Assembly (NCBI GenBank): GCA_964590575.1
Contig: CAZPWM010000056.1
Location: 1 to 11,381, forward strand
Reading direction: 5' to 3'
Source: an uncultured archaeon
Lineage (GTDB): Archaea > Asgardarchaeota > Thorarchaeia > Thorarchaeales > Thorarchaeaceae
Length of the DNA: 11,381 nt
The position numbers and the translations under genes are program-made. This document shows, piece by piece, positions 145 to 7,365 of the stretch. Each line of letters starts with the position of its first letter. Within the stretch, counting starts at the first letter, position 1. The notes below the pieces were generated by a model that was given only the letters and a program-made list of their open reading frames with translations, was not told the origin of the DNA and searched no databases.

Positions 145-753
145 ATGCCCAGTAAATTCAGAGTCAGACGTATCTTCAAGGGTCTTGTCTGGTGGATCGC
201 ACGTCCACTAGCTCGAGCGGGAGCTAGGCCAAATACAATCACATACTTCAGCCTTCTGTTAGCGCTGCTGGCTGCATTGATTCTGAATCTCACGGGGTCT
301 TCCATTGGGTTTGGTGTACTGGTGTTTCTCTGTGGTCTGTTCGATGGGGTTGATGGAGCAGTAGCTCGTGAGAGGAACCTTTCCACTGATGCCGGAGCCT
401 TCACAGATTCGGTTGTGGATAAAGTGGCTGAAGTCCTGATTTTGGGGTCAATTGCAATTGCTTTCTCGGGTACAACTTTTCTTAGCTTACACGTCGAATG
501 GTGGGTGATTCTAGCAATTATAGGCTGGCTATTGACAAGCTATACGAGCGCCCGTGCATCTAGTTTGGGTGTGACTGACCTTGACATTGGGCTAGGGGCT
601 CGCTCTGAGAGATTGCTCACTTTAGTAGTATTTTCTGTTCTAAATCAGCTATTATTGGGACTGGTTGTCGTTAGTGTAATGGGTCTTCTTACAGCAGGCT
701 ATAGGTTCTATAATTATCATCATGAAATTGTTCGACAGAGTAAATCCCAATAA
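145..753 (+). CDS. pgsA: CDP-alcohol phosphatidyltransferase (archaetidylinositol-phosphate synthase / PgsA-like)
   Basis: Full family signature DGVDGAVAR-x8-GAFTDSVVD, the N-terminal PNTIT motif, an RSER motif and several hydrophobic helices. Substrate specificity cannot be read from the sequence. Confidence 0.9.
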   Translation: MPSKFRVRRIFKGLVWWIARPLARAGARPNTITYFSLLLALLAALILNLTGSSIGFGVLVFLCGLFDGVDGAVARERNLSTDAGAFTDSVVDKVAEVLILGSIAIAFSGTTFLSLHVEWWVILAIIGWLLTSYTSARASSLGVTDLDIGLGARSERLLTLVVFSVLNQLLLGLVVVSVMGLLTAGYRFYNYHHEIVRQSKSQ

Positions 754-823
754 CTGCAGACCATTATACTTAAGAGCCAAGTCAAACAGGCCGCGTACGA
801 ATCATTGATTGGAGTTTCAATTC

Positions 824-1240
824 ATGGCCAAATTCAGAGCGGATCATTATCTCATTGCAGAATTCGAACAGATTTCCGATACGAAAGAGATTGGAGAGAA
901 AGTTCTGGCAGCTTTGAAAGAGTTGCCCGAGATGAAAGACCTAGCAATTGTTTCTAAACGTATGGAAGGCAAGTCCTGGTCAGAGATCGTGGGACGGATA
1001 GATGTCCCAGCGGGGTCAAAGGCATTCTGGGCTATGATTAAGAAAGGCATCACCGACAGAGAACCCTATCATCTCTTCATTAGGTTTGATATGAATGGTG
1101 AAGGCGAAACCATAGACGAAGCTCGCTCTAATGTTAGAATTTGGGTTGAAGGAAATGTAGTTCCAAAGATTGAAGCATTAACTAGAGTGAAATCCATCAA
1201 TGTTCTTCAAGCTAATGAAATCTTCATGCCCAAGTTGTAA
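824..1240 (+). CDS. Hypothetical soluble alpha/beta protein (138 aa; alternative TTG start at 809)
   Basis: Clean ORF with normal composition. GGAG at 811-814 precedes ATG 824, and TTATACTTAA near 764-773 is TATA-like. No motif recognised. Confidence 0.75.
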   Translation: MAKFRADHYLIAEFEQISDTKEIGEKVLAALKELPEMKDLAIVSKRMEGKSWSEIVGRIDVPAGSKAFWAMIKKGITDREPYHLFIRFDMNGEGETIDEARSNVRIWVEGNVVPKIEALTRVKSINVLQANEIFMPKL

Positions 1241-1247
1241 GAACCAA

Positions 1248-2255
1248 TCACTCTTCTTGGATATCGATTAGATAAAGATCAGGTCCAACTGCCTGAACAA
1301 GCTCTGGACGAGAGTCCCCGTTTATATCACCTATGGCTATGTGTGAATCGGTAGATTTTCGTGATGTCTTAAGTGATGTATCTTCAACAATTCTATTACC
1401 CACGAATCCAAGAACCGTGATAGTTGAGTTTGAGTGGCTTGTTATTATCTGGCCATTCCCATTCTTCCAAAAGTTCCCTATTTGTAACGATGTTACAGGT
1501 TTTGGAGCTTTTACAGAGTCGTGCTTCTCTAGAGCCCCTTTTACGATGCCAAACAAACTAAGATTACGTCCATCCGATACTATCAAGATTTCGGAGTTAC
1601 CATCTTGAGTCATATCTCCAGATGCTACTAGACCAATCTCCCCTCCATTACTGATCCTAGCTCTTTCATGAAGTCTATCATCCGCATATTGATAGACGAA
1701 GAGATACCCCGAATCATCCCCAAAAACAAAGCGACTATAGGGAATACCTTTACTATTTAACGGTTGAATTGAGAATACAGGTCGTTCTAACACTTTATGG
1801 GCGAGTTTATCCAAAGCCACATCATACCAACCATAACATCGCAGGTTGCCATCGGTTGTAGCCACAACAACCTCTGATCTATCATCATTTAGCACATTCA
1901 GAACTGCCACAGCTGTAGGTAAAGATCCCAGTGGGGTTGTAGCCTTCACACTAAGCTCTCCATCCATGTGTACAAGAACTCGTAGGATGTTGTCTAGTCC
2001 ACCAATCACAAAATCGGGTTTTCCGTTACCAATCACATCTCCGATTCCCATTGCGGCTAGAGGTGGCAATCCACTCACTCTTCCAATCTCATTTACTTGA
2101 CCACTGTCATCCTTCTCGGTTTCATAGATAACGAGGTCGCCCCCTAAAGTTGTGACTACAACATTGGATCTCCCTGAACTTGAAAAATCAACTAGCTCAA
2201 CGGACGTGATGACTTCTTTGAAAGAAACCTTTGAGATAACTTCAAGATTGGTCAT
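1248..2255 (-). CDS. FG-GAP/VCBS-repeat beta-propeller protein without a signal peptide
   Basis: Repeated D-x-x-x-D/N-G-x-x-D/E-hhh loops about every 45 aa: DFSSSGRSNVVV, GDVIGNGKPDFVIG, NVLNDDRSEVVVA, GDMTQDGNSEILIV, GNFWKNGNGQIITS, GDINGDSRPELVQA. 335 aa fits one 7-bladed propeller. Confidence 0.85.
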   Translation of the reverse strand: MTNLEVISKVSFKEVITSVELVDFSSSGRSNVVVTTLGGDLVIYETEKDDSGQVNEIGRVSGLPPLAAMGIGDVIGNGKPDFVIGGLDNILRVLVHMDGELSVKATTPLGSLPTAVAVLNVLNDDRSEVVVATTDGNLRCYGWYDVALDKLAHKVLERPVFSIQPLNSKGIPYSRFVFGDDSGYLFVYQYADDRLHERARISNGGEIGLVASGDMTQDGNSEILIVSDGRNLSLFGIVKGALEKHDSVKAPKPVTSLQIGNFWKNGNGQIITSHSNSTITVLGFVGNRIVEDTSLKTSRKSTDSHIAIGDINGDSRPELVQAVGPDLYLIDIQEE

Positions 2256-2398
2256 GCGAGGTGTCCTCTGGGTTGAAGAAGCTGGTTACCTCGTGACAAT
2301 TAAAACTTGTTCCATCAAAGTGAATTATTGAACTACATGAACCATAGAGATTTAGAACTGATGAGCTTAAGAATATCCTTACTGAATGGGATATTGTC

Positions 2399-2932
2399 AT
2401 GAGCCAGGAGAAACTCGATCCAGATCTCTGGGTTGAGAGCGCAGAGGTTGTAGCTGAACAGCTGCATGAATTCATCAAGGAGTTTGCATCTTTCACTCCT
2501 GAACGCTTTGTACACATCAAGTTTCATCTCTTGAGAGGCCCAGGTCTTATAAAACAAAGCCGAGATGAACTATGCGAACTCTCCATTCATGGTAAGTTTT
2601 GTCCAAAATGTGATCTACTATATGTTGCGAAAAAATGCTTACTTTGGTACGAATTATTCCAAATAATCCAATGGAGAACTGTTGAGAGAGCACCTCCCTG
2701 TATTCGCCTAGCATTTGCAAAGAAAAGCATCAAGACTGTAGCAACCTATCTGTCTAAAACGAATCTCATTGTTGCTCCATTCTACAAGTCGCGAGGGTCC
2801 ACATCCTGCAATATCATGCGTCGATGGGGGTATTGTCAGCCGAATGAATACTGTCGAGCTATGGAGCGAGAAAATACATTGGAGTATATACCTGCTCGCG
2901 AACGTGTGAAAATCTCGCGGAAATTAAGTTAG
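2399..2932 (+). CDS. Small Cys-rich protein with a primase large subunit (PriL) C-terminal Fe-S-like motif
   Basis: PPC101I...SC137NIMRRWGYC146QPNEYC152...NTLEY resembles the archaeal PriL C-terminal pattern PPC...SC-x2-M/L-x3-G-x-C-x5-C...NPL-x-Y. A second Cys cluster is C59/C68/C71/C80. Confidence 0.65.
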   Translation: MSQEKLDPDLWVESAEVVAEQLHEFIKEFASFTPERFVHIKFHLLRGPGLIKQSRDELCELSIHGKFCPKCDLLYVAKKCLLWYELFQIIQWRTVERAPPCIRLAFAKKSIKTVATYLSKTNLIVAPFYKSRGSTSCNIMRRWGYCQPNEYCRAMERENTLEYIPARERVKISRKLS

Positions 2933-2950
2933 TTCTTTTATTGTGATGGC

Positions 2951-2957
2951 TTAAATA
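2951..2957 (+). promoter_or_regulatory. Candidate TATA box for the HD-domain gene
   Basis: TTAAATA in the 44-bp gap, about 20-35 nt before ATG 2977/2992. The same heptamer occurs upstream of actin. Confidence 0.4.
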
Positions 2958-2976
2958 CTGGCTCAGGTTCAGTCTA

Positions 2977-4500
2977 ATGGGGTTCAAGACTATGCCAGAT
3001 GATATCGATACTGATGCCATTAAACTCATCCGCTTGACTGGATTAAGAGAATCTGTGATTGACACAGCTCGTATGCAGAAAGGAGCTGACTGGGACCGTA
3101 TCCAGAAAGCTGTAGGTGAACACAATCGTTTCATATCTATGGGTGAGAAACACACCCGTCAGAAGGCAGTCCAAGACCCTGTGCATGGGGCTATACTACT
3201 TGAACCCTGGGAACTCGACATTATATCTACTTGGGAGATGCTAAGACTTAGATATGTGCGACAGTTGGGGCCGGCTCATTTAGTCTATCCGGGTGCTACA
3301 CACACACGATTCGAACACTGTCTGGGTACAAACTTCCTAGCGCAGAAATCCATCCGAGTTGTGAACTACTGCGAGGATTTAGATACTGCATGCTTCATGC
3401 CATTCTCTCGCCTCCTTGAAGATTACCATCAGAAACTGTTTCGAGCTGCAGCGCTACTGCATGATGTTGGACACCCTCCCACGAGCCATACTATCGAGTA
3501 TGCCCTTGAATCATGGATTGGTCTTGACCATCTCGACCTTGGCGAGTACCTTATACTCTATAGTAGCCTCACAGATGTTCTTACGCAGAATGGCATCGAA
3601 CCCAGTGATGTCGTTAGCATCCTTCGAAGACGCGCAAAGGATCCGGTCATGAGTCTACTCTCAGATTTTCTCGACCACCCTCTAGACATCGACAAGACAG
3701 ACTACCTCATTCGAGATGCACACTTCAGTGGAGTTCAGCTTGGCATATTCCCTGCTGAGAGAGTGATGTTGACCAATCGTGTGGTAAAAAACAAAGACGG
3801 CAAGTACATTCGCGCTTTCATGTTGAAGGCTATTCATTCATTGGAAGCATTGATTCTCAGCCGTAATTGGATGTTCAGTGATTTATACATCCACCCCACC
3901 GTCAAACTCGCTGAAGCACTAATCTCCAAGGCTACATACTTCAGGATGCAGGAGGAGGACCTATCAAAGAATGAGTGCATAGGTCTGTTTACGCGCATGA
4001 CCGATGGAGACCTTTTCAGATGGCTAGATGAATCTGAGATTGCTTTCGTTAAGGAGTATGCAGGCCGAATAAGATATCGCAAGTTGTTCAAGGTTGTGCT
4101 GTCGCGACCACTGGTATCCTTTGAGAAAGACACACAGAAGCTATTTCGTGAAACACTACACGACATCAAGAAACTGATAGATGCTGAGAATGAGATTGCT
4201 GAGGCACAAGGGAGTGTTGTGATTGACGTGGTTTCTCCGCCCCTTGGTGAAAACTTCTTGGGTTCAATCCCAATATTAGTGGGCGGTGTGAAGGGCTTCG
4301 ATATTGTCAATCTTGATGAGACCCAAGAAGGCCGCCCATTGATGCAAATCCTGAAGCAACAGTCACTGACGATACCTTCGGTCAGAGTTTATGCCGATAC
4401 AAAAATCGCGGAGAAGGTGCGAAAGCGTTTCGACCAGAGATACCCAGTTTCTGATACTCCTGCATACCGCGAAGATGAGTACGACCTCACCGAGTATTGA
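2977..4500 (+). CDS. HD-domain phosphohydrolase, SAMHD1/dNTP triphosphohydrolase-like
   Basis: Motifs DPVHG, RLRYVRQLG, YPGATHTRFEHCLG, LLHDVGH-x-P-x-SH, DIDKTDYLIRD, YIHP and MTD. The metal ligands H...HD...D are all present. Confidence 0.92.
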   Translation: MGFKTMPDDIDTDAIKLIRLTGLRESVIDTARMQKGADWDRIQKAVGEHNRFISMGEKHTRQKAVQDPVHGAILLEPWELDIISTWEMLRLRYVRQLGPAHLVYPGATHTRFEHCLGTNFLAQKSIRVVNYCEDLDTACFMPFSRLLEDYHQKLFRAAALLHDVGHPPTSHTIEYALESWIGLDHLDLGEYLILYSSLTDVLTQNGIEPSDVVSILRRRAKDPVMSLLSDFLDHPLDIDKTDYLIRDAHFSGVQLGIFPAERVMLTNRVVKNKDGKYIRAFMLKAIHSLEALILSRNWMFSDLYIHPTVKLAEALISKATYFRMQEEDLSKNECIGLFTRMTDGDLFRWLDESEIAFVKEYAGRIRYRKLFKVVLSRPLVSFEKDTQKLFRETLHDIKKLIDAENEIAEAQGSVVIDVVSPPLGENFLGSIPILVGGVKGFDIVNLDETQEGRPLMQILKQQSLTIPSVRVYADTKIAEKVRKRFDQRYPVSDTPAYREDEYDLTEY

Positions 4501-5185
4501 TCAGATGTGGTACTTTTTTCAATACCATCTTGTACTCAAACTCTAAGTAAATAATACCGTAGACTGCCTCCACAAGCGTACCTTTGTCATGGTCCATCTC
4601 TAATTGACTTGGTGGGTCGGGGTCAAAATGAATGCGGTACTCGTACAGATTCCACTTGTCGCAGAGTTTTGCCATGTGACTATTGCTCACTATCTCCGCC
4701 TTCCTCTGAGTGATCTTGCCTGCGTCACCTAGGTGTGGTTTCCATAGATGCTGAAGAACCGCTGATGAGATAACCGCATCACCTACCAGTGCCAGAACCT
4801 TCGCCATCTCTCCAAGGTTTATCATCTGTGCAAACCCGTCTGAACCAAGTGGGTCGTTTTCGCTTCTACGATACTGGGTTTCTAGCTCCATGAAGATATT
4901 CTTCGTACTTGGTTGAAACATCGTTACCTGAAAGAGTTCTTCGTTCTTGAAGTCAAGCTCGAATATTCTCTCTAAGTCCGGCACAAGGTCAGATTTTATC
5001 CTCTTCAAACTCTCTTGTATTGACCCAAGGTCCAACAACCATCGGTCCAGTTTCGTGAGTAATCTAGTGTTATTCTCCGGAGTTTCTCTTTGTGTTGCCT
5101 GAATTGTCTTGGTCAAGGCAGCGAGTCTATCTTCAATGTGTATTGGATTGTATGAGAGTGCTGGAATTTTATCCTCTTCCTTCAA
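4487..5185 (-). CDS. Ribonuclease III-domain protein lacking a dsRBD (Mini-III-like), with an N-terminal helical extension
   Basis: LALVGDAVI (RNase III signature), GKITQRKAEIVSN and KGTLVEAVYGIIYLE. The protein ends about 15 aa after the nuclease domain. The start is placed at TTG 5185 (GGAAGTGA upstream, 13 nt after the previous stop) rather than ATG 5269, which overlaps the upstream gene by 71 nt. Confidence 0.85.
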   Translation of the reverse strand: MKEEDKIPALSYNPIHIEDRLAALTKTIQATQRETPENNTRLLTKLDRWLLDLGSIQESLKRIKSDLVPDLERIFELDFKNEELFQVTMFQPSTKNIFMELETQYRRSENDPLGSDGFAQMINLGEMAKVLALVGDAVISSAVLQHLWKPHLGDAGKITQRKAEIVSNSHMAKLCDKWNLYEYRIHFDPDPPSQLEMDHDKGTLVEAVYGIIYLEFEYKMVLKKVPHLINTR

Positions 5186-5198
5186 AGAATCACTTCCT

Positions 5199-5978
5199 TC
5201 AGTAGTAGCTGACCTCCGCATCAGCAGCATCATATCGCGAAACATGGAATGCTGTTGTGGAGTATTCATGTGCTAGTTTTGCCATAGCTAATGTGATGAG
5301 GGTTGGTCCCAATGTCAGGTCGAAGATGATATTGTGGGTTTGAAGATGCTTGAGAATCTCGTTCTCAAGGAACTCGTAGGTCTTCTGCAGATTACCATAA
5401 TCCAATTCTTGCTCGCCTCCCATGACCTTTGTTGGAACCTCTCTCCATTCAGTTGTCCATACACGAAATGCGTCATCTGGGATAAACCGGTCCATAATAC
5501 GCGATACTCCTCGGGTCCAATGTAGCGCTTCGACAAAAACAAGTAGTTTCTTTGGATTGAAATAGGGGTTATTTACAAGCCACTGTACAAATGGGCGCTG
5601 GTCTTCTGGATTGTTCAACGAAGTAACATACATTAGCGGTTTTGTGATACCTAGAGCCTTGCGGACCGGATGTATTGCTCGCGGGTCCAACTCAAAGAGG
5701 CGATACTGAGATTGTTTCCAACTGACTATGATTCCAAGTTCTTCAAGTCGTTGTGTATTATGATAGAGTTTAGGACTTGTCACTTTGACCTTGGCGATCT
5801 CTTTCTTACTGGCACCTTCCGCTACCATCTGTGCTTTGATATCTGTAGTAATCTTTTCTCGGAGCTCTGCTCCTGTCAACAGTCCTCCCTCAAGCTGGTC
5901 CAGGATGATTCTCCTGGCTCGAACGGTTTCAATCTCTTCGAGGATAATTTCTTCAACAGGCTTCCTGAGCAATTTCAA
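5199..5978 (-). CDS. Winged-HTH (ArsR-like) transcription regulator with a C-terminal CARF-like Rossmann domain
   Basis: N-terminus RARRIILDQLEGGLLTGAEL...SPKLYHNTQRLEELGIIVSWKQSQYRLFEL fits a wHTH with an insertion. The C-terminus has strands LMYVTSL and PKKLLVFV and the motif IIFDLTLGPTLITLAMAKLA followed by AFHVS, like CARF motif II (D/N-x-T/S-G-G-x-K/R). TTG start. Confidence 0.72.
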   Translation of the reverse strand: MKLLRKPVEEIILEEIETVRARRIILDQLEGGLLTGAELREKITTDIKAQMVAEGASKKEIAKVKVTSPKLYHNTQRLEELGIIVSWKQSQYRLFELDPRAIHPVRKALGITKPLMYVTSLNNPEDQRPFVQWLVNNPYFNPKKLLVFVEALHWTRGVSRIMDRFIPDDAFRVWTTEWREVPTKVMGGEQELDYGNLQKTYEFLENEILKHLQTHNIIFDLTLGPTLITLAMAKLAHEYSTTAFHVSRYDAADAEVSYY

Positions 5979-6225
5979 GCACCTTTCGCGGATATATTAG
6001 CTAGTAATTATGAGTAGATTATTTTTATACTTATCGAAGATAAACATCCAGAAACGGCGAAAAACGGCGTGAAATAGCTCAACAATATACATAATTCAAA
6101 TACTTTTCGAATAAGTCGGCACCTGTCGGACGTACCCTTAAATATCTTCTTCATGAACAAATTGCTAGAACAGAGTCTCAAAAGCTCTGAGCTGATCAAC
6201 AATCACAAACGAGGACCGATAAAAA
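5979..6225. promoter_or_regulatory. Divergent promoter region between the regulator and actin
   Basis: 247-bp AT-rich gap. Minus-strand TATAAAAATA at 6020-6029, plus-strand TTAAATA at 6139-6145, GAGG at 6211-6214, and several short repeats (see findings). Confidence 0.65.
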
Positions 6226-7365
6226 ATGGCTGAAGACGAGTTTCTTGGCGCTAAGCCCGTTGTCATCGACAATGGTACTGGCTTGAGCAAGAACGGTTAC
6301 GCAGGCGAAGATCAGCCACGAAGCGTTTGGCCCACACTAATTGGATATCCACGATACGAGTCAATCATGACTGACGTGGACCACTACACACGTGACTACT
6401 ATATTGGTGAAGAGGCTATCAACCTCCGTGGTGTACTCCGTCTGGTCTATCCTATCTCTCACGGTAAGATAGAAGACTGGGATGCTATCGAGAAGATATG
6501 GAGCTATACGTTCTATAACGACTTAAAGATAGACCCAAGTGAGAATCCGGTGCTCCTCACAGAGGCACCATTCAACCCTAGAGAAAACAGAGAGCGTATG
6601 GCATCTGTCATGTTCGATAACTTCGGCGTGCCTGCAGTGTACGTAGCCACACAGGCTGTACTGTCACTGTACGCATCTGGAAGGACCACTGGTCTGGTCA
6701 TTGACTCAGGCGATGGTGTGACCCACATAGTACCAATCTATGAGGGCTTTTCAATCAACCACGCTATCCGAAGAATTGACCTGGCTGGTCGAGACATCAC
6801 CGAGTATCTGCGCAGACTCCTCAGACAGAGGGGTTACACTTTTGTGAGTGGTGCAGAGAAAGAGATTGTCAGAGATGTCAAAGAGAAGCTCTGTTATGTA
6901 GCTCTTGATCCCGAGAGGGAGAGGACAGTTGCTGACAAGGCTGGTGTTGACAAACCTTACATGTTACCCGACGGTGAGGTAATCACTGTTGGTGCAGAGA
7001 GGTTCCAAGCCCCCGAGCTGTTCTTCAACCCAAGTGCCATTGGTCTAGATACTATGCCACTCGACGACCACATTGTCGAGTCAATCAAGGCCTGTGACGT
7101 CGACTTGAGGCGTGATCTGTACGCCAACATCGTACTATCAGGTGGCTCAACCATGTTCCCAGGGCTCAAGGAGAGGCTCCACAAGGAGATCACCGAGCTA
7201 GTCCCAGAGAACATCGAGGTCCGAATCATCGCTCCTCCCGAGAGACAGTACTCTGTCTGGATTGGTGGAAGCATTCTCGGCTCACTCAAGACATTCCAGA
7301 AGATGTGGGTGTCCAAGAAGGAGTTCGAGGAAGTAGGACCCGAAGTGATACACCGCTGTATCTAG
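6226..7365 (+). CDS. Asgard actin (Lokiactin-like, close to eukaryotic actin)
   Basis: 379 aa, collinear with eukaryotic actin: [130 protein letters not shown]-terminal HRCI. Confidence 0.98.

What the first reader, a model, noticed from the sequence alone, without database searches (positions are those of the whole stretch)
2399..5978. Candidate CRISPR-independent nucleotide-sensing module: wHTH-CARF regulator and Mini-RNase III facing a SAMHD1-like dNTPase and a PriL-like Fe-S protein
Seen: a tightly coupled minus-strand pair (wHTH-CARF-like, 13-nt gap, RNase III-like) runs tail-to-tail into a SAMHD1-like HD gene with a 14-nt stop overlap (4487-4500), which is itself preceded by a PriL-CTD-like gene. 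No cas, cyclase or RtcB gene is in the window. Known: CARF domains bind cyclic oligoadenylates (Csm6/Csx1/Csa3) or RNA ends (RtcR), and SAMHD1 and some bacterial dGTPases restrict viruses by depleting dNTPs. Inference: this may be an undescribed Asgard sensor-regulator/RNase/dNTPase stress or antiviral system. I do not know of a described CARF-regulator + RNase III operon. The convergent orientation means the HD gene may only be a neighbour.
Basis: partly seen in the sequence, partly recalled or inferred. Interest (0 to 1): 0.78.

Follow-up and report, generated by a model that had tools for sequence, protein, structure and literature searches.

The report
Asgard CARF regulator beside actin gene
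The supposed four-gene antiviral module is really an old, always-present Asgard sensor-regulator gene (DNA-binding domain plus CARF nucleotide-sensing domain) that sits head-to-head with the actin gene, and only in Thorarchaeia carries an RNase III gene behind it; the dNTPase and the cysteine-rich gene are just neighbours.

Summary
The minus-strand pair is a wHTH-CARF protein (5199-5972) and a single RNase III-domain protein (4487-5185). It converges on a SAMHD1/EF1143-type HD gene (2977-4500), which follows a 177-aa protein with eight invariant cysteines (2399-2932). Two labels fail. The RNase matches Drosha and bacterial RNase III better than Mini-III. "PriL-CTD-like" rests on a cysteine motif only.

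The four-gene defence reading is not supported. The CARF protein belongs to the catalogued family CARF_m5. It is single-copy in 80 of 87 genomes of its class (24 of 24 high-quality ones), while Cas10 occurs in about 10 of 87. The own genome shows no Cas10, SMODS, DAC or GGDEF gene. Outside Thorarchaeia the CARF gene occurs without the RNase III, HD and 177-aa genes, yet lies divergent to actin in 13 of 21 loci from 8 families. Two genera have lost the HD orthologue and kept the pair.

The CARF-actin spacer holds two copies of a 12-nt box, conserved in 25 of 26 congeners. It is the only such pair in the genome.

Best reading: a ligand-gated local transcription factor, CRISPR-independent, with a translationally coupled RNase III in Thorarchaeia. 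Actin control is a hypothesis.

The parts
2399..2932 (+). 177-aa all-alpha protein with 8 invariant Cys (C59, C68, C71, C80, C101, C137, C146, C152) and no assignable family. Probably in one operon with the HD gene (44-nt gap). A neighbour, not part of the CARF unit.
   Evidence: 18 orthologues; model pLDDT 80.1, pTM 0.55; no PDB hit by profile or by fold; only 16 representatives among 1.84 billion. PPCI plus 3 Cys align to PriL's Cys motif at probability 0.34%.
2977..4500 (+). SAMHD1/EF1143-type HD phosphohydrolase (HD + HD_assoc_2), 507 aa. Convergent neighbour, one of three paralogues in the genome.
   Evidence: The orthologue is missing in G013 and reduced to remnants with stops in G079.
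4487..5185 (-). RNase III-domain protein of 232 aa from TTG 5185; in-frame ATGs at 5221-5269 would lengthen it. It has an N-terminal region of about 125 aa with no Pfam family plus one RNase III domain and no dsRBD. It is the only RNase III-domain gene found in the genome.
   Evidence: In Thorarchaeia it is always directly downstream of the CARF gene.
5199..5972 (-). wHTH-CARF protein of family CARF_m5, 257 aa from TTG 5972 (the ORF also opens at TTG 5978). wHTH about residues 8-110; CARF about 112-257, with the loop DLTLGP after beta-4.
5991..5999 (-). AT-rich TATA-like element about 20-27 nt upstream of the CARF start; candidate promoter of a (near-)leaderless CARF-RNase III transcript. Inferred only.
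   Evidence: sequence; an AT-rich block is conserved at this position in 22 aligned Thorarchaeial spacers.
6027..6038 (+). Box 1, ATACTTATCGAA: first copy of a 12-nt direct repeat; candidate operator.
   Evidence: repeat D1; both boxes present in 25 of 26 congeneric spacers; only 3 exact copies in 3.4 Mb.
6100..6111 (+). Box 2, ATACTTTTCGAA: second copy, 73 nt from box 1 and 26 nt upstream of the actin TATA box; candidate operator.
6137..6144 (+). CTTAAATA, the TATA box of the actin promoter, 89 nt upstream of the ATG.
   Evidence: found in 23 of 24 representative spacers and in 49 of 50 Thorarchaeial and sister-family loci.
6211..6216 (+). GAGGAC Shine-Dalgarno-like element of the actin gene.
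   Evidence: (GAGGAC/GAGGAG conserved in all 22 aligned spacers).
6226..7365 (+). Actin (379 aa), divergently transcribed from the CARF gene; candidate regulatory target.
   Evidence: PF00022, E 3e-131. for the pairing. RNA contigs in 4 metatranscriptomes.

Best explanation
The core of the finding is a CARF_m5-family protein: an N-terminal winged helix joined to a C-terminal CARF domain. It is an ancient, vertically inherited, single-copy Asgard gene. I read it as a ligand-gated local transcription factor that does not depend on CRISPR.

Shown: its fold, its family membership, its near-universal presence in Thorarchaeia, its presence in at least 13 other Asgard families, and its conserved head-to-head position with the actin gene. 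Also shown: in the own genus, two copies of a 12-nt box lie between the two promoters, and this is the only such pair in the genome.

Inferred: a dimer binds these boxes. On binding an unknown nucleotide-type ligand in the CARF pocket, it changes transcription of its own operon and possibly of actin.

In Thorarchaeaceae a gene for a single RNase III-domain protein was placed directly behind it, often with a 4-nt stop/start overlap. The only RNase III-domain gene found in the genome is therefore co-expressed with the sensor, which would add a post-transcriptional arm acting on double-stranded RNA. This step is also inferred.

The SAMHD1-like HD gene and the 177-aa cysteine-rich gene form a separate, convergent, Thorarchaeia-specific pair. 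They are syntenic neighbours and not parts of the unit.
For: Fold and family.
- PADLOC CARF_m5 matches at 5.8e-25.
- The model (pLDDT 87.6) hits the CARF domains of Csm6, Card1, Can2 and Cam1, and ArsR-type wHTH proteins.
- 10 of 10 non-Thorarchaeial orthologues hit CARF_m5 at 1.5e-22 to 2.3e-77.
- The family rings in 0 of 14 control genomes.

Core-gene behaviour.
- The gene is found in 80 of 87 class genomes, 24 of 24 high-quality ones and 17 of 17 genera, almost always once.
- It is found in 141 of 400 Asgard genomes.
- Identity is 68-90% in the genus, 35-49% in other genera and 21-29% in other families.

CRISPR independence.
- The own genome has no Csm1, Cmr2, SMODS, DAC or GGDEF match.
- Cas10 models hit 10 of 87 class genomes.

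Actin link.
- The genes are divergent and adjacent in all 49 loci of the own class that hold both genes (48 Thorarchaeaceae and one of sister family f2), with a spacer of 166-549 nt.
- They are divergent and adjacent in 13 of 21 loci outside the own family (one of them that f2 locus), covering families f2, f4, f5, f6, f14, f16, f28 and f29. They are tandem in one more locus (f17).
- These loci were picked by CARF matches only.

Cis elements.
- The box ATACTT[AT]TCGAA occurs at least twice, in the same orientation, in 25 of 26 congeneric spacers. That is 62 hits against a shuffle mean of 2.9 and maximum of 8.
- There are 3 exact copies in the genome, 2 of them here, and this is the only pair within 200 nt.

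Operon with RNase III.
- The RNase gene is adjacent in 19 of 20 loci from other genera.
- The stop and start overlap by 4 nt in 9 of 19 loci.

Phylum-wide invariant residues cluster in the wHTH (R20, L24, L27, G30, G34, L37, R38, Y70, N72, L76), which implies a conserved DNA-binding role. One RNA-library contig covers 5515-5833 of the CARF gene with 0 differences.
Against: - No binding, ligand or regulatory effect has been shown.
- The CARF gene sits at the end of a long Asgard-wide syntenic array: Cgi121, THUMP, Sua5, NTP-transferase, CDP-OH transferase and ComDEAB-like genes. Its place beside actin could therefore be inherited gene order without function.
- In three families (f15, f18, f19; 6 loci) actin is not adjacent, while the ComB-like gene still is in 4 of them.
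- The 12-nt boxes are conserved only within one genus of related genomes. Other genera show only AT-rich repeats, and a strict palindrome is not supported: 6 of 24 against a shuffle mean of 1.9 and maximum of 8.
- CARF-domain residues are much less conserved across the phylum than wHTH residues. The D of the D-x-[ST]-x-G loop is N or E in 3 of 19 sequences, so ligand binding may not be universal.
- No source of a cyclic oligonucleotide was found.
- RNase homologues function without a CARF partner in Loki-type genomes.
Confidence: 0.5

Rival explanations
1. A two-gene RNA-metabolism unit, with actin as a bystander. As with RtcR and rtcBA, the CARF factor senses an RNA-derived signal and controls only its own operon, whose payload is the RNase III-domain enzyme. 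That enzyme could process rRNA or antisense RNA, or clear double-stranded RNA. The position beside actin is inherited synteny.
For: - Translational coupling and strict adjacency throughout Thorarchaeaceae.
- It is the only RNase III-domain gene found in the genome.
- The surrounding array of unrelated housekeeping genes is syntenic across the phylum too, so synteny here can persist without a functional link.
- Actin adjacency is broken in f15, f18 and f19.
Against: - In the other Asgard families the CARF gene has no RNase III gene, nor any other conserved co-directional downstream gene. The factor's ancestral role therefore cannot be control of RNase III.
- Box 2 lies 26 nt upstream of the actin TATA box, about 130 nt from the CARF start.
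Confidence: 0.27
2. One reading: a CRISPR-independent antiviral or stress system. CARF senses a nucleotide alarm, RNase III degrades RNA, and the SAMHD1-like dNTPase depletes dNTPs, with the Fe-S protein as an accessory.
For: - CARF, RNase and dNTPase domains are all used in known defence systems. The HD protein has weak hits to anti-phage dGTPase models.
- The four genes are adjacent in 16 of 20 loci from other Thorarchaeial genera.
- RNase homologues are patchy, with up to two copies per genome, in Loki-type genomes.
Against: - The linkage exists only inside one family, where the whole block from the CDP-OH transferase gene to actin is syntenic.
- The HD orthologue is absent in G013 and a stop-ridden remnant in G079, and both keep CARF and RNase III.
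- The HD and 177-aa genes are on the other strand and convergent, so they share no promoter with the pair.
- The CARF gene is a single-copy gene in 24 of 24 high-quality genomes. Its neighbours in other families are housekeeping genes, not defence genes.
- Apart from the CARF hit, PADLOC gives only a weak dGTPase hit at 2e-5.
Confidence: 0.08
3. Independent housekeeping genes. The CARF-like domain is a degenerate structural or dimerisation domain with no ligand. The protein is a constitutive DNA-binding or chromatin protein, and all adjacencies are historical.
For: - Phylum-wide conservation is concentrated in the wHTH, while the CARF part is poorly conserved and carries an insert of about 25-30 aa in Thorarchaeia.
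- No messenger synthase was found.
Against: - The loop after beta-4 keeps the CARF-type pattern [DN]-[LV]-[TS]-x-G in 18 of 19 sequences spanning the phylum, with acidic D itself in 16 of 19.
- The domain is still recognised as CARF by profile and by fold in every lineage tested.
- 4-nt overlaps with the RNase gene are not expected for unrelated genes.
Confidence: 0.12

Closest known systems
CARF_m5 (profile PDLC01987 in PADLOC-DB; by its name it derives from the CARF classification of Makarova et al. 2020, NAR 48:8828, which I could not read)
   Same: The window protein and 10 of 10 tested orthologues from other Asgard families match this profile over nearly its whole length. This is the family it belongs to.
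   Different: The Thorarchaeial members are divergent (E 5.8e-25 against 2.3e-77 for the best lineage) and carry an insert in the CARF domain. What the authors wrote about the family's context is unknown to me, because the paper is not held and supplements are closed.
Csa3 (CARF plus wHTH transcription factor of CRISPR loci that binds cA4; PMC8844856 and PMC8699464, abstracts seen in the listing)
   Same: A CARF sensor fused to a winged helix, working as a ligand-gated transcription factor. There are weak profile hits to Csa3 on the wHTH part.
   Different: The domain order is reversed, with the wHTH first. There is no cas neighbourhood and no Cas10 in the genome. It is a near-universal gene in its class, not a CRISPR accessory.
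RtcR (bacterial CARF-containing activator of the rtcBA RNA-repair operon; recalled, not looked up here)
   Same: A CRISPR-independent CARF regulator encoded next to an RNA-metabolism gene that it could control.
   Different: No AAA+/sigma-54 module is present; the protein is 257 aa with only wHTH and CARF. RtcB lies on another contig. The partner here is an RNase III-domain protein.
RNase III family: bacterial Rnc, Mini-III (4oun), Drosha and Dicer RIIID
   Same: It has one RNase III catalytic domain (PF00636) with invariant G135-D136 and E206 at the signature positions. Like Mini-III it has no dsRBD.
   Different: The best profile matches are Drosha at 1.7e-13 and Campylobacter RNase III at 3.7e-7; Mini-III scores only E 0.25. 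An extra N-terminal region of about 125 aa carries the invariant motif FQPST. In the alignment to Drosha, the first acidic residue of the signature is Ala and the position three residues before the catalytic Glu is Thr.
Asgard Rnc-Argonaute-helicase clusters (bioRxiv 10.1101/2023.12.14.571608; passages read)
   Same: RNase III-domain genes in Asgard archaea found in conserved gene associations.
   Different: Those Rnc proteins carry a dsRBD and flank Argonaute genes. Here there is no dsRBD, no Piwi-domain gene in the genome, and the partner is a CARF regulator.
SAMHD1 / EF1143 / Aq_1910 dNTP triphosphohydrolases
   Same: The HD gene aligns over about 330 residues, including the H...HD...D metal motif, and carries HD_assoc_2.
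   Different: It scores far below the curated cut-offs of the dGTPase and anti-phage dGTPase models. It is one of three paralogues in the genome, and its orthologue has been lost in two genera.

Membership tests
CARF superfamily | Rossmann-like alpha/beta fold of the CARF type | tested here: met
   Model with pLDDT 87.6. Of 34 Foldseek hits at E<=0.001, the top ranks are CARF domains of Csm6, Card1, Cam1, Can2, Cdn1 and Sso2081.
CARF superfamily | Conserved loop after beta-4 of the type D/N-x-S/T-x-G, and a small or polar residue after beta-1. This motif definition is recalled from the CARF literature. | tested here: met
   DLTLGP lies at 220-225 after strand 216-220, and VTSL lies at the end of strand 115-121. 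The pattern [DN]-[LV]-[TS]-x-G is kept in 18 of 19 sequences across the phylum.
CARF superfamily | Binds a cyclic oligoadenylate or other nucleotide ligand | not testable with these tools
   No assay is possible. No Cas10, SMODS, DAC or GGDEF gene in the genome.
CARF_m5 (PADLOC PDLC01987) | Match to the family profile over its length | tested here: met
   E 5.8e-25, profile positions 3-186 of 195. Single genomic match.
Csa3 | N-terminal CARF followed by C-terminal wHTH | tested here: not met
   The order is wHTH (about 8-110) then CARF (about 112-257).
Csa3 | Encoded in or beside CRISPR-cas loci | tested here: not met
   No cas gene in the window. No Cas10 in the genome.
RtcR-type regulator | CARF plus AAA+ sigma-54 activator module, next to rtcBA | tested here: not met
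   No AAA+ domain. RtcB lies at C4:60163-61473.
RNase III family | RNase III catalytic domain with the signature G-D and a downstream E | tested here: met
   PF00636 at 50 bits, above its cut-off of 27. G135, D136 and E206 are invariant in 18 orthologues.
RNase III family | Full set of four acidic metal ligands. E. coli numbering E41, D45, D114, E117 is recalled. | tested here: inconclusive
   In the alignment to Drosha, the position of the first Glu is Ala, and the position three residues before the catalytic Glu is Thr. Activity cannot be judged from sequence.
Class 1 bacterial RNase III (Rnc) | C-terminal dsRNA-binding domain | tested here: not met
   No dsrm hit in Pfam. The protein ends about 15-20 residues after the RNase III domain.
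Mini-III | Sequence membership in the Mini-III family; a protein consisting of the RNase III domain alone | tested here: not met
   4oun scores E 0.25, ranked below some 30 Drosha, Dicer and Rnc sequences. There is an additional N-terminal region of about 125 aa.
SAMHD1/EF1143 dNTPase | HD fold with H...HD...D motif and the associated C-terminal region | tested here: met
   HTRFEH, LLHDVGHPP and DKTDYLIRD align to the corresponding motifs of 2hek.
PriL C-terminal domain | Match to the PriL family or fold | tested here: not met
   The Pfam scan gave no family. The A2 profile has 0 PDB hits. Foldseek gives 0 hits at E<=10. hhalign against the genome's own PriL gives probability 0.34%.
PriL C-terminal domain | Four Cys ligands of a 4Fe-4S cluster, the first in a PPC motif (recalled) | tested here: inconclusive
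   C101 (in PPCI), C137, C146 and C152 are invariant. In the weak hhalign alignment they line up with PPCI...GC...LC...LC of the genuine PriL. Four further invariant Cys have no counterpart.
Mobile anti-virus defence system | Patchy distribution, variable location, defence-island neighbours | tested here: not met
   Present in 24 of 24 high-quality class genomes at a fixed locus. Neighbours in other families are KEOPS/Sua5, lipid-synthesis and ComABDE-like genes and actin.

The most novel reading that the evidence does not exclude
CARF_m5 is the dedicated, nucleotide-responsive regulator of the Asgard actin gene. A sensor domain otherwise known from CRISPR signalling would then gate expression of the cytoskeleton's main building block. 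This head-to-head gene pair would date back to early in Asgard evolution. In Thorarchaeia the circuit would have gained an RNase III arm.
Probability: 0.25. Interest if true: 0.85.

Novelty: new variant of a known kind. Interest (0 to 1): 0.6.

Why it matters
CARF domains are known mainly as receivers of CRISPR type III signals. This family is a near-universal, CRISPR-independent CARF transcription factor in the archaea closest to eukaryotes, so it points to a housekeeping use of such sensors and to a ligand not yet identified.

If its conserved head-to-head partner, actin, is its target, the finding gives the first concrete and testable handle on how Asgard archaea regulate their actin cytoskeleton. 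The materials for that test are a purified 257-aa protein, a 253-bp spacer and two 12-nt boxes.

The coupled RNase III-domain protein is the only one found in the genome. It is closest by profile to Drosha's first RNase III domain, which bears on the discussion of where eukaryotic double-stranded-RNA processing came from.

The work also removes a false lead: the dNTPase and the Cys-rich protein should not be tested as parts of a defence system on the strength of this neighbourhood.

Tried and rejected
- Complex prediction on CARF (A1) with RNase III (A3) returned 'no answer' (score 0.00). It is neither evidence for nor against binding.
- A palindromic operator ATAC-N5-11-GTAT, suggested by the multi-genus alignment, is not supported: 6 of 24 spacers against a shuffle mean of 1.9 and maximum of 8. 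Repeat searches in other genera and families gave only AT-rich, low-complexity pairs.
- PriL-CTD as a family is rejected.
- Protein Atlas gave nothing usable for the 177-aa protein (best score 0.75) or for the RNase N-terminal region (best 0.87, no family).
- The long representatives that share the N-terminal half of the 177-aa family have no Pfam family, except a weak VapE-like hit in one of them (1.4e-4, below cut-off).
- RNA runs. No RNA contig lay on 2300-5485 or 5840-6193. With contigs this proves nothing about expression of the HD, 177-aa or RNase genes.
- Two RNA contigs from two runs start at 6222/6223. I take this as a break of assembly at the edge of the conserved coding sequence, not as a transcript start.
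- The sigma-70 and terminator scans are uninformative for an archaeon: 2 promoter-like sites against 3.5 expected, and 0 terminators.
- The third exact copy of the box (C76:6404) lies inside a 2309-aa ORF and is taken as chance.
- Literature. Searches for CARF with Asgard and actin, 'CARF domain' with Asgard, RNase III with Asgard and Drosha, RNase III with Asgard archaea and 'CARF domain' with RNase III and wHTH found no description of this pairing. One search was too loose to be useful. One search (CARF_m5) found nothing.
- The key classification paper (Makarova et al. 2020) is not held, and supplements are closed. What it says about CARF_m5 may already cover part of this.

Full report
WHAT IS IN THE WINDOW. 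The window is a whole 11,381-bp contig (C56) of a 3.4-Mb genome that is 91% complete. Protein names given by public sources to near-identical homologues place it in Thorarchaeota. The genes in order are:
- CDP-alcohol phosphatidyltransferase, 145-753(+)
- a 143-aa ORF, 809-1240(+)
- an FG-GAP/BBS-like beta-propeller, 1248-2255(-)
- the 177-aa gene, 2399-2932(+)
- the HD gene, 2977-4500(+)
- the RNase III-domain gene, 4487-5185(-)
- the wHTH-CARF gene, 5199-5972(-)
- actin, 6226-7365(+)
- further genes downstream that are not conserved

The 13-nt gap holds if the RNase gene starts at TTG 5185.

IDENTITY OF THE FOUR PROTEINS.

(a) The 259/257-aa protein.
- Pfam and NCBIfam give no hit.
- It matches the PADLOC profile CARF_m5--CARF at E 5.8e-25.
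- An AlphaFold2 model built on 26 homologues has pLDDT 87.6 and pTM 0.83.
- Foldseek aligns its C-terminal half with the CARF domains of Csm6, Card1, Cam1, Can2, Cdn1 and ring nuclease Sso2081. It aligns its N-terminal part with ArsR/SqrR, LmrR and TubR winged helices.
- The loop after strand 4 reads DLTLGP, a CARF-type motif.

(b) The RNase.
- It has one RNase III domain (PF00636, E 5.7e-13), no dsRBD, and an N-terminal region of about 125 aa with no Pfam family.
- G135, D136, N168 and E206, and the motifs FQPST and RIHFDP, are invariant in 18 orthologues.
- A profile of these orthologues hits Drosha at 1.7e-13, Campylobacter RNase III at 3.7e-7, Dicers at about 1e-6, and Mini-III (4oun) only at E 0.25.
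- 'Mini' thus describes the architecture loosely. It is not a family assignment.

(c) The HD protein is a SAMHD1/EF1143/Aq_1910 homologue with an intact H...HD...D motif.

(d) The 177-aa protein.
- It has eight invariant cysteines.
- It belongs to a tiny family: 16 representatives among 1.84 billion.
- Its model is all-alpha, with pLDDT 80 and pTM 0.55.
- It has no PDB match by sequence, profile or fold.
- Against the genome's own PriL, hhalign gives probability 0.34%. The aligned stretch nevertheless places PPCI and three Cys on PriL's Cys motif.

HOW THE GENES BEHAVE IN RELATIVES.
- The CARF protein is found in 80 of 87 genomes of the class, in 24 of 24 high-quality ones and in 17 of 17 genera. 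It occurs almost always once.
- I examined 20 loci from 16 other genera of the family and one sister family. The block CDP-OH transferase, orf143, FG-GAP, 177-aa, HD, RNase III, CARF, actin recurs in the same order. RNase III is next to CARF in 19 of 20 loci, the 177-aa gene is present in 17 of 20, and a substantial HD gene in 17 of 20.
- There are three exceptions. G013 has no HD gene between the 177-aa and RNase genes. G079 has only HD remnants with stops. G001, of the sister family, has actin, CARF and FG-GAP only.
- Genome-wide, G013 and G079 keep only paralogues (36-41% identity) that the own genome also has. The HD orthologue is therefore dispensable to the CARF-RNase pair.
- CARF stop and RNase start overlap by 4 nt in 9 of 19 loci and lie within 14 nt in 15 of 19, using first-start ORFs. 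That is strong evidence for one operon.

BEYOND THORARCHAEIA.
- A profile of the CARF family finds it in 141 of 400 Asgard genomes: 78 of 85 in the own family and in at least 13 other families. It is absent from f8 (0 of 31), f10, f11 and f13, and only partial in f22.
- 10 of 10 orthologues tested match CARF_m5 at 1.5e-22 to 2.3e-77.
- I chose 21 loci outside the own family by the CARF match alone. None has the RNase III, HD or 177-aa gene.
- In those loci the CARF gene closes a deeply conserved array: Cgi121, THUMP, Sua5, NTP-transferase, CDP-OH transferase, ComDE/PALP/ComA-like genes and a ComB-like gene. It is convergent with ComB in 9 loci.
- It is divergent and adjacent to actin in 13 of the 21 loci (families f2, f4, f5, f6, f14, f16, f28, f29) and tandem with actin in one (f17). 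Actin is 3.3 kb away in one locus and absent from five (f15, f18, f19). One locus ends at the contig edge.
- All 49 loci of the own class that hold both genes (48 Thorarchaeaceae and the f2 locus, which is also among the 21) have them head-to-head, 166-549 nt apart.
- The RNase protein is in 79 of 85 genomes of the own family. Elsewhere it occurs as full-length homologues (29-41% identity) in about 20 genomes of Loki-type families. In 18 such loci it stands alone among unconserved neighbours, without CARF.

CRISPR INDEPENDENCE. The own genome has no match to Csm1, Cmr2, SMODS, DAC or GGDEF. It also has no Piwi-domain gene. Across the class, Cas10 models hit 10 of 87 genomes, 6 of 24 high-quality ones and 0-1 of 27 in the own genus. 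The CARF gene is in 80 of 87.

THE SPACER BETWEEN CARF AND ACTIN.
- An alignment of 22 Thorarchaeial spacers shows an invariant CTTAAATA (window 6137-6144, 89 nt before the ATG). It also shows a conserved GAGGAC before the actin start, and an AT-rich block about 20-27 nt from the CARF start.
- In the window a 12-nt box occurs twice in the same orientation, at 6027-6038 and 6100-6111.
- Allowing 2 mismatches, both copies are present in 25 of 26 congeneric spacers, mostly 73 nt apart. That is 62 hits against 2.9 expected and a maximum of 8 in shuffles. Sequence between the boxes varies.
- The genome holds 3 exact copies: the two here and one inside a 2309-aa ORF. This is the only pair within 200 nt.
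- These genomes are related, so conservation alone overstates the case. Still, a locus-specific repeated box between two divergent promoters, next to a gene for a DNA-binding protein, is the classic layout of a local regulator.
- The boxes are not recognisable in other genera.

EXPRESSION. Contigs from four metatranscriptome runs cover actin. One contig, with 0 differences, covers 5515-5833 of the CARF gene. These are contigs from RNA libraries, so they show presence only.

INTERPRETATION.
- The evidence fits an ancient, vertically inherited, ligand-gated local transcription factor, and not a mobile defence system.
- The conserved partner across the phylum is actin, not the RNase III or HD gene. 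Whether actin is a target is inference. I put it at about 1 in 4, because the CARF gene also sits in a long syntenic array of unrelated genes, and because three families have broken the pairing.
- The RNase III gene is a Thorarchaeaceae-specific addition to the regulator's transcript.
- The HD and 177-aa genes are a separate convergent pair.
- Across the phylum the invariant residues lie in the wHTH. This argues for a conserved DNA-binding role and leaves the state of the ligand pocket less certain.

COMPARISON WITH WHAT IS KNOWN.
- The family is already catalogued as CARF_m5 (PADLOC). I could not read the source paper.
- It works like Csa3 or RtcR, being a CARF-gated transcription factor, but it fails the membership tests for both. 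The domain order is reversed and there is no cas context, so it is not Csa3. There is no AAA+ module and no adjacent rtcB, so it is not RtcR.
- RNase III genes in Asgard archaea are known beside Argonautes, and those carry a dsRBD. This one is of a different architecture and sits in a different context.
- The held literature contains no description of a CARF regulator with an RNase III operon, or of a CARF-actin gene pair.

VERDICT. The four-gene antiviral interpretation is not supported. A narrower and different finding remains: a CRISPR-independent CARF regulator paired with actin, with an RNase III arm in Thorarchaeia. It is a new variant of a known kind.

Noticed in passing
L037:6543-7712(-), L040:6423-7592(-), L043:6309-7478(-), L050:9168-10337(+); equivalent to about window 7300, where the window itself has no insert: In four other Thorarchaeial genera the actin gene carries a 30-nt insert with an in-frame stop between the codons for FQK and MWV. 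Removing it restores the conserved sequence. RNAalifold on the 4 sequences gives an exon-exon helix, a 4-bp central helix, two bulges that hold the two junctions (each 2 nt 3' of the central helix), and an inner hairpin with 4 compensatory pairs. That is a bulge-helix-bulge-like mini-intron in an mRNA. One literature search found no description of it.
   Followed up: partly
L051-L070, e.g. L055:1222-8757: An Asgard-wide conserved gene array precedes the CARF gene in many families: PRTase, Cgi121, THUMP, Sua5, NTP-transferase, CDP-OH transferase, ComDE-like TPP enzyme halves, PALP enzyme, ComA-like and ComB-like genes. In Thorarchaeia the Com-like genes are replaced by orf143, FG-GAP, 177-aa, HD and RNase III.
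   Followed up: partly
window 1248-2255(-): A 335-aa beta-propeller hits FG-GAP_3 and the BBS7 beta-propeller model above their Pfam cut-offs (36.2 and 34.7 bits). It also hits BBS2_Mid just below cut-off. It is conserved at this position in Thorarchaeia and next to the CARF gene in sister-family genome G001.
   Followed up: no
L071-L088 (e.g. G221:C1:2549988-2550647, G339 two copies, G235 two copies, G355 two copies): Full-length homologues of the RNase III-domain protein (about 228 aa, 29-41% identity) are scattered over a minority of Loki-type genomes, sometimes twice per genome, with unrelated neighbours each time. This suggests transfer or a mobile context there.
   Followed up: partly
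L039:9479-12240 (G079) and L036:5753-7247 (G024): In G079 about 2.4 kb of other sequence separates the RNase gene from short HD remnants that contain several stops. In G024 the HD gene matches in two frames, so it is a possible frameshift or an assembly error.
   Followed up: no
G000:C76:2282-9211(-): A 2309-aa ORF on another contig holds the only other exact copy of the 12-nt box (at 6404). The giant protein was not examined.
   Followed up: no
window 6052-6073: Between the two boxes lies a short repeat (AACGGCG twice, 7 nt each). In congeners its two halves change together, for example to ATGGCT twice. This may be another protein site or a small hairpin.
   Followed up: no
window 6222-6223: RNA-library contigs from two runs (X14, X18) both begin 3-4 nt before the actin ATG, although the TATA box lies 89 nt upstream. 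This is probably a break of assembly where strains diverge. Raw reads would be needed to say more.
   Followed up: no
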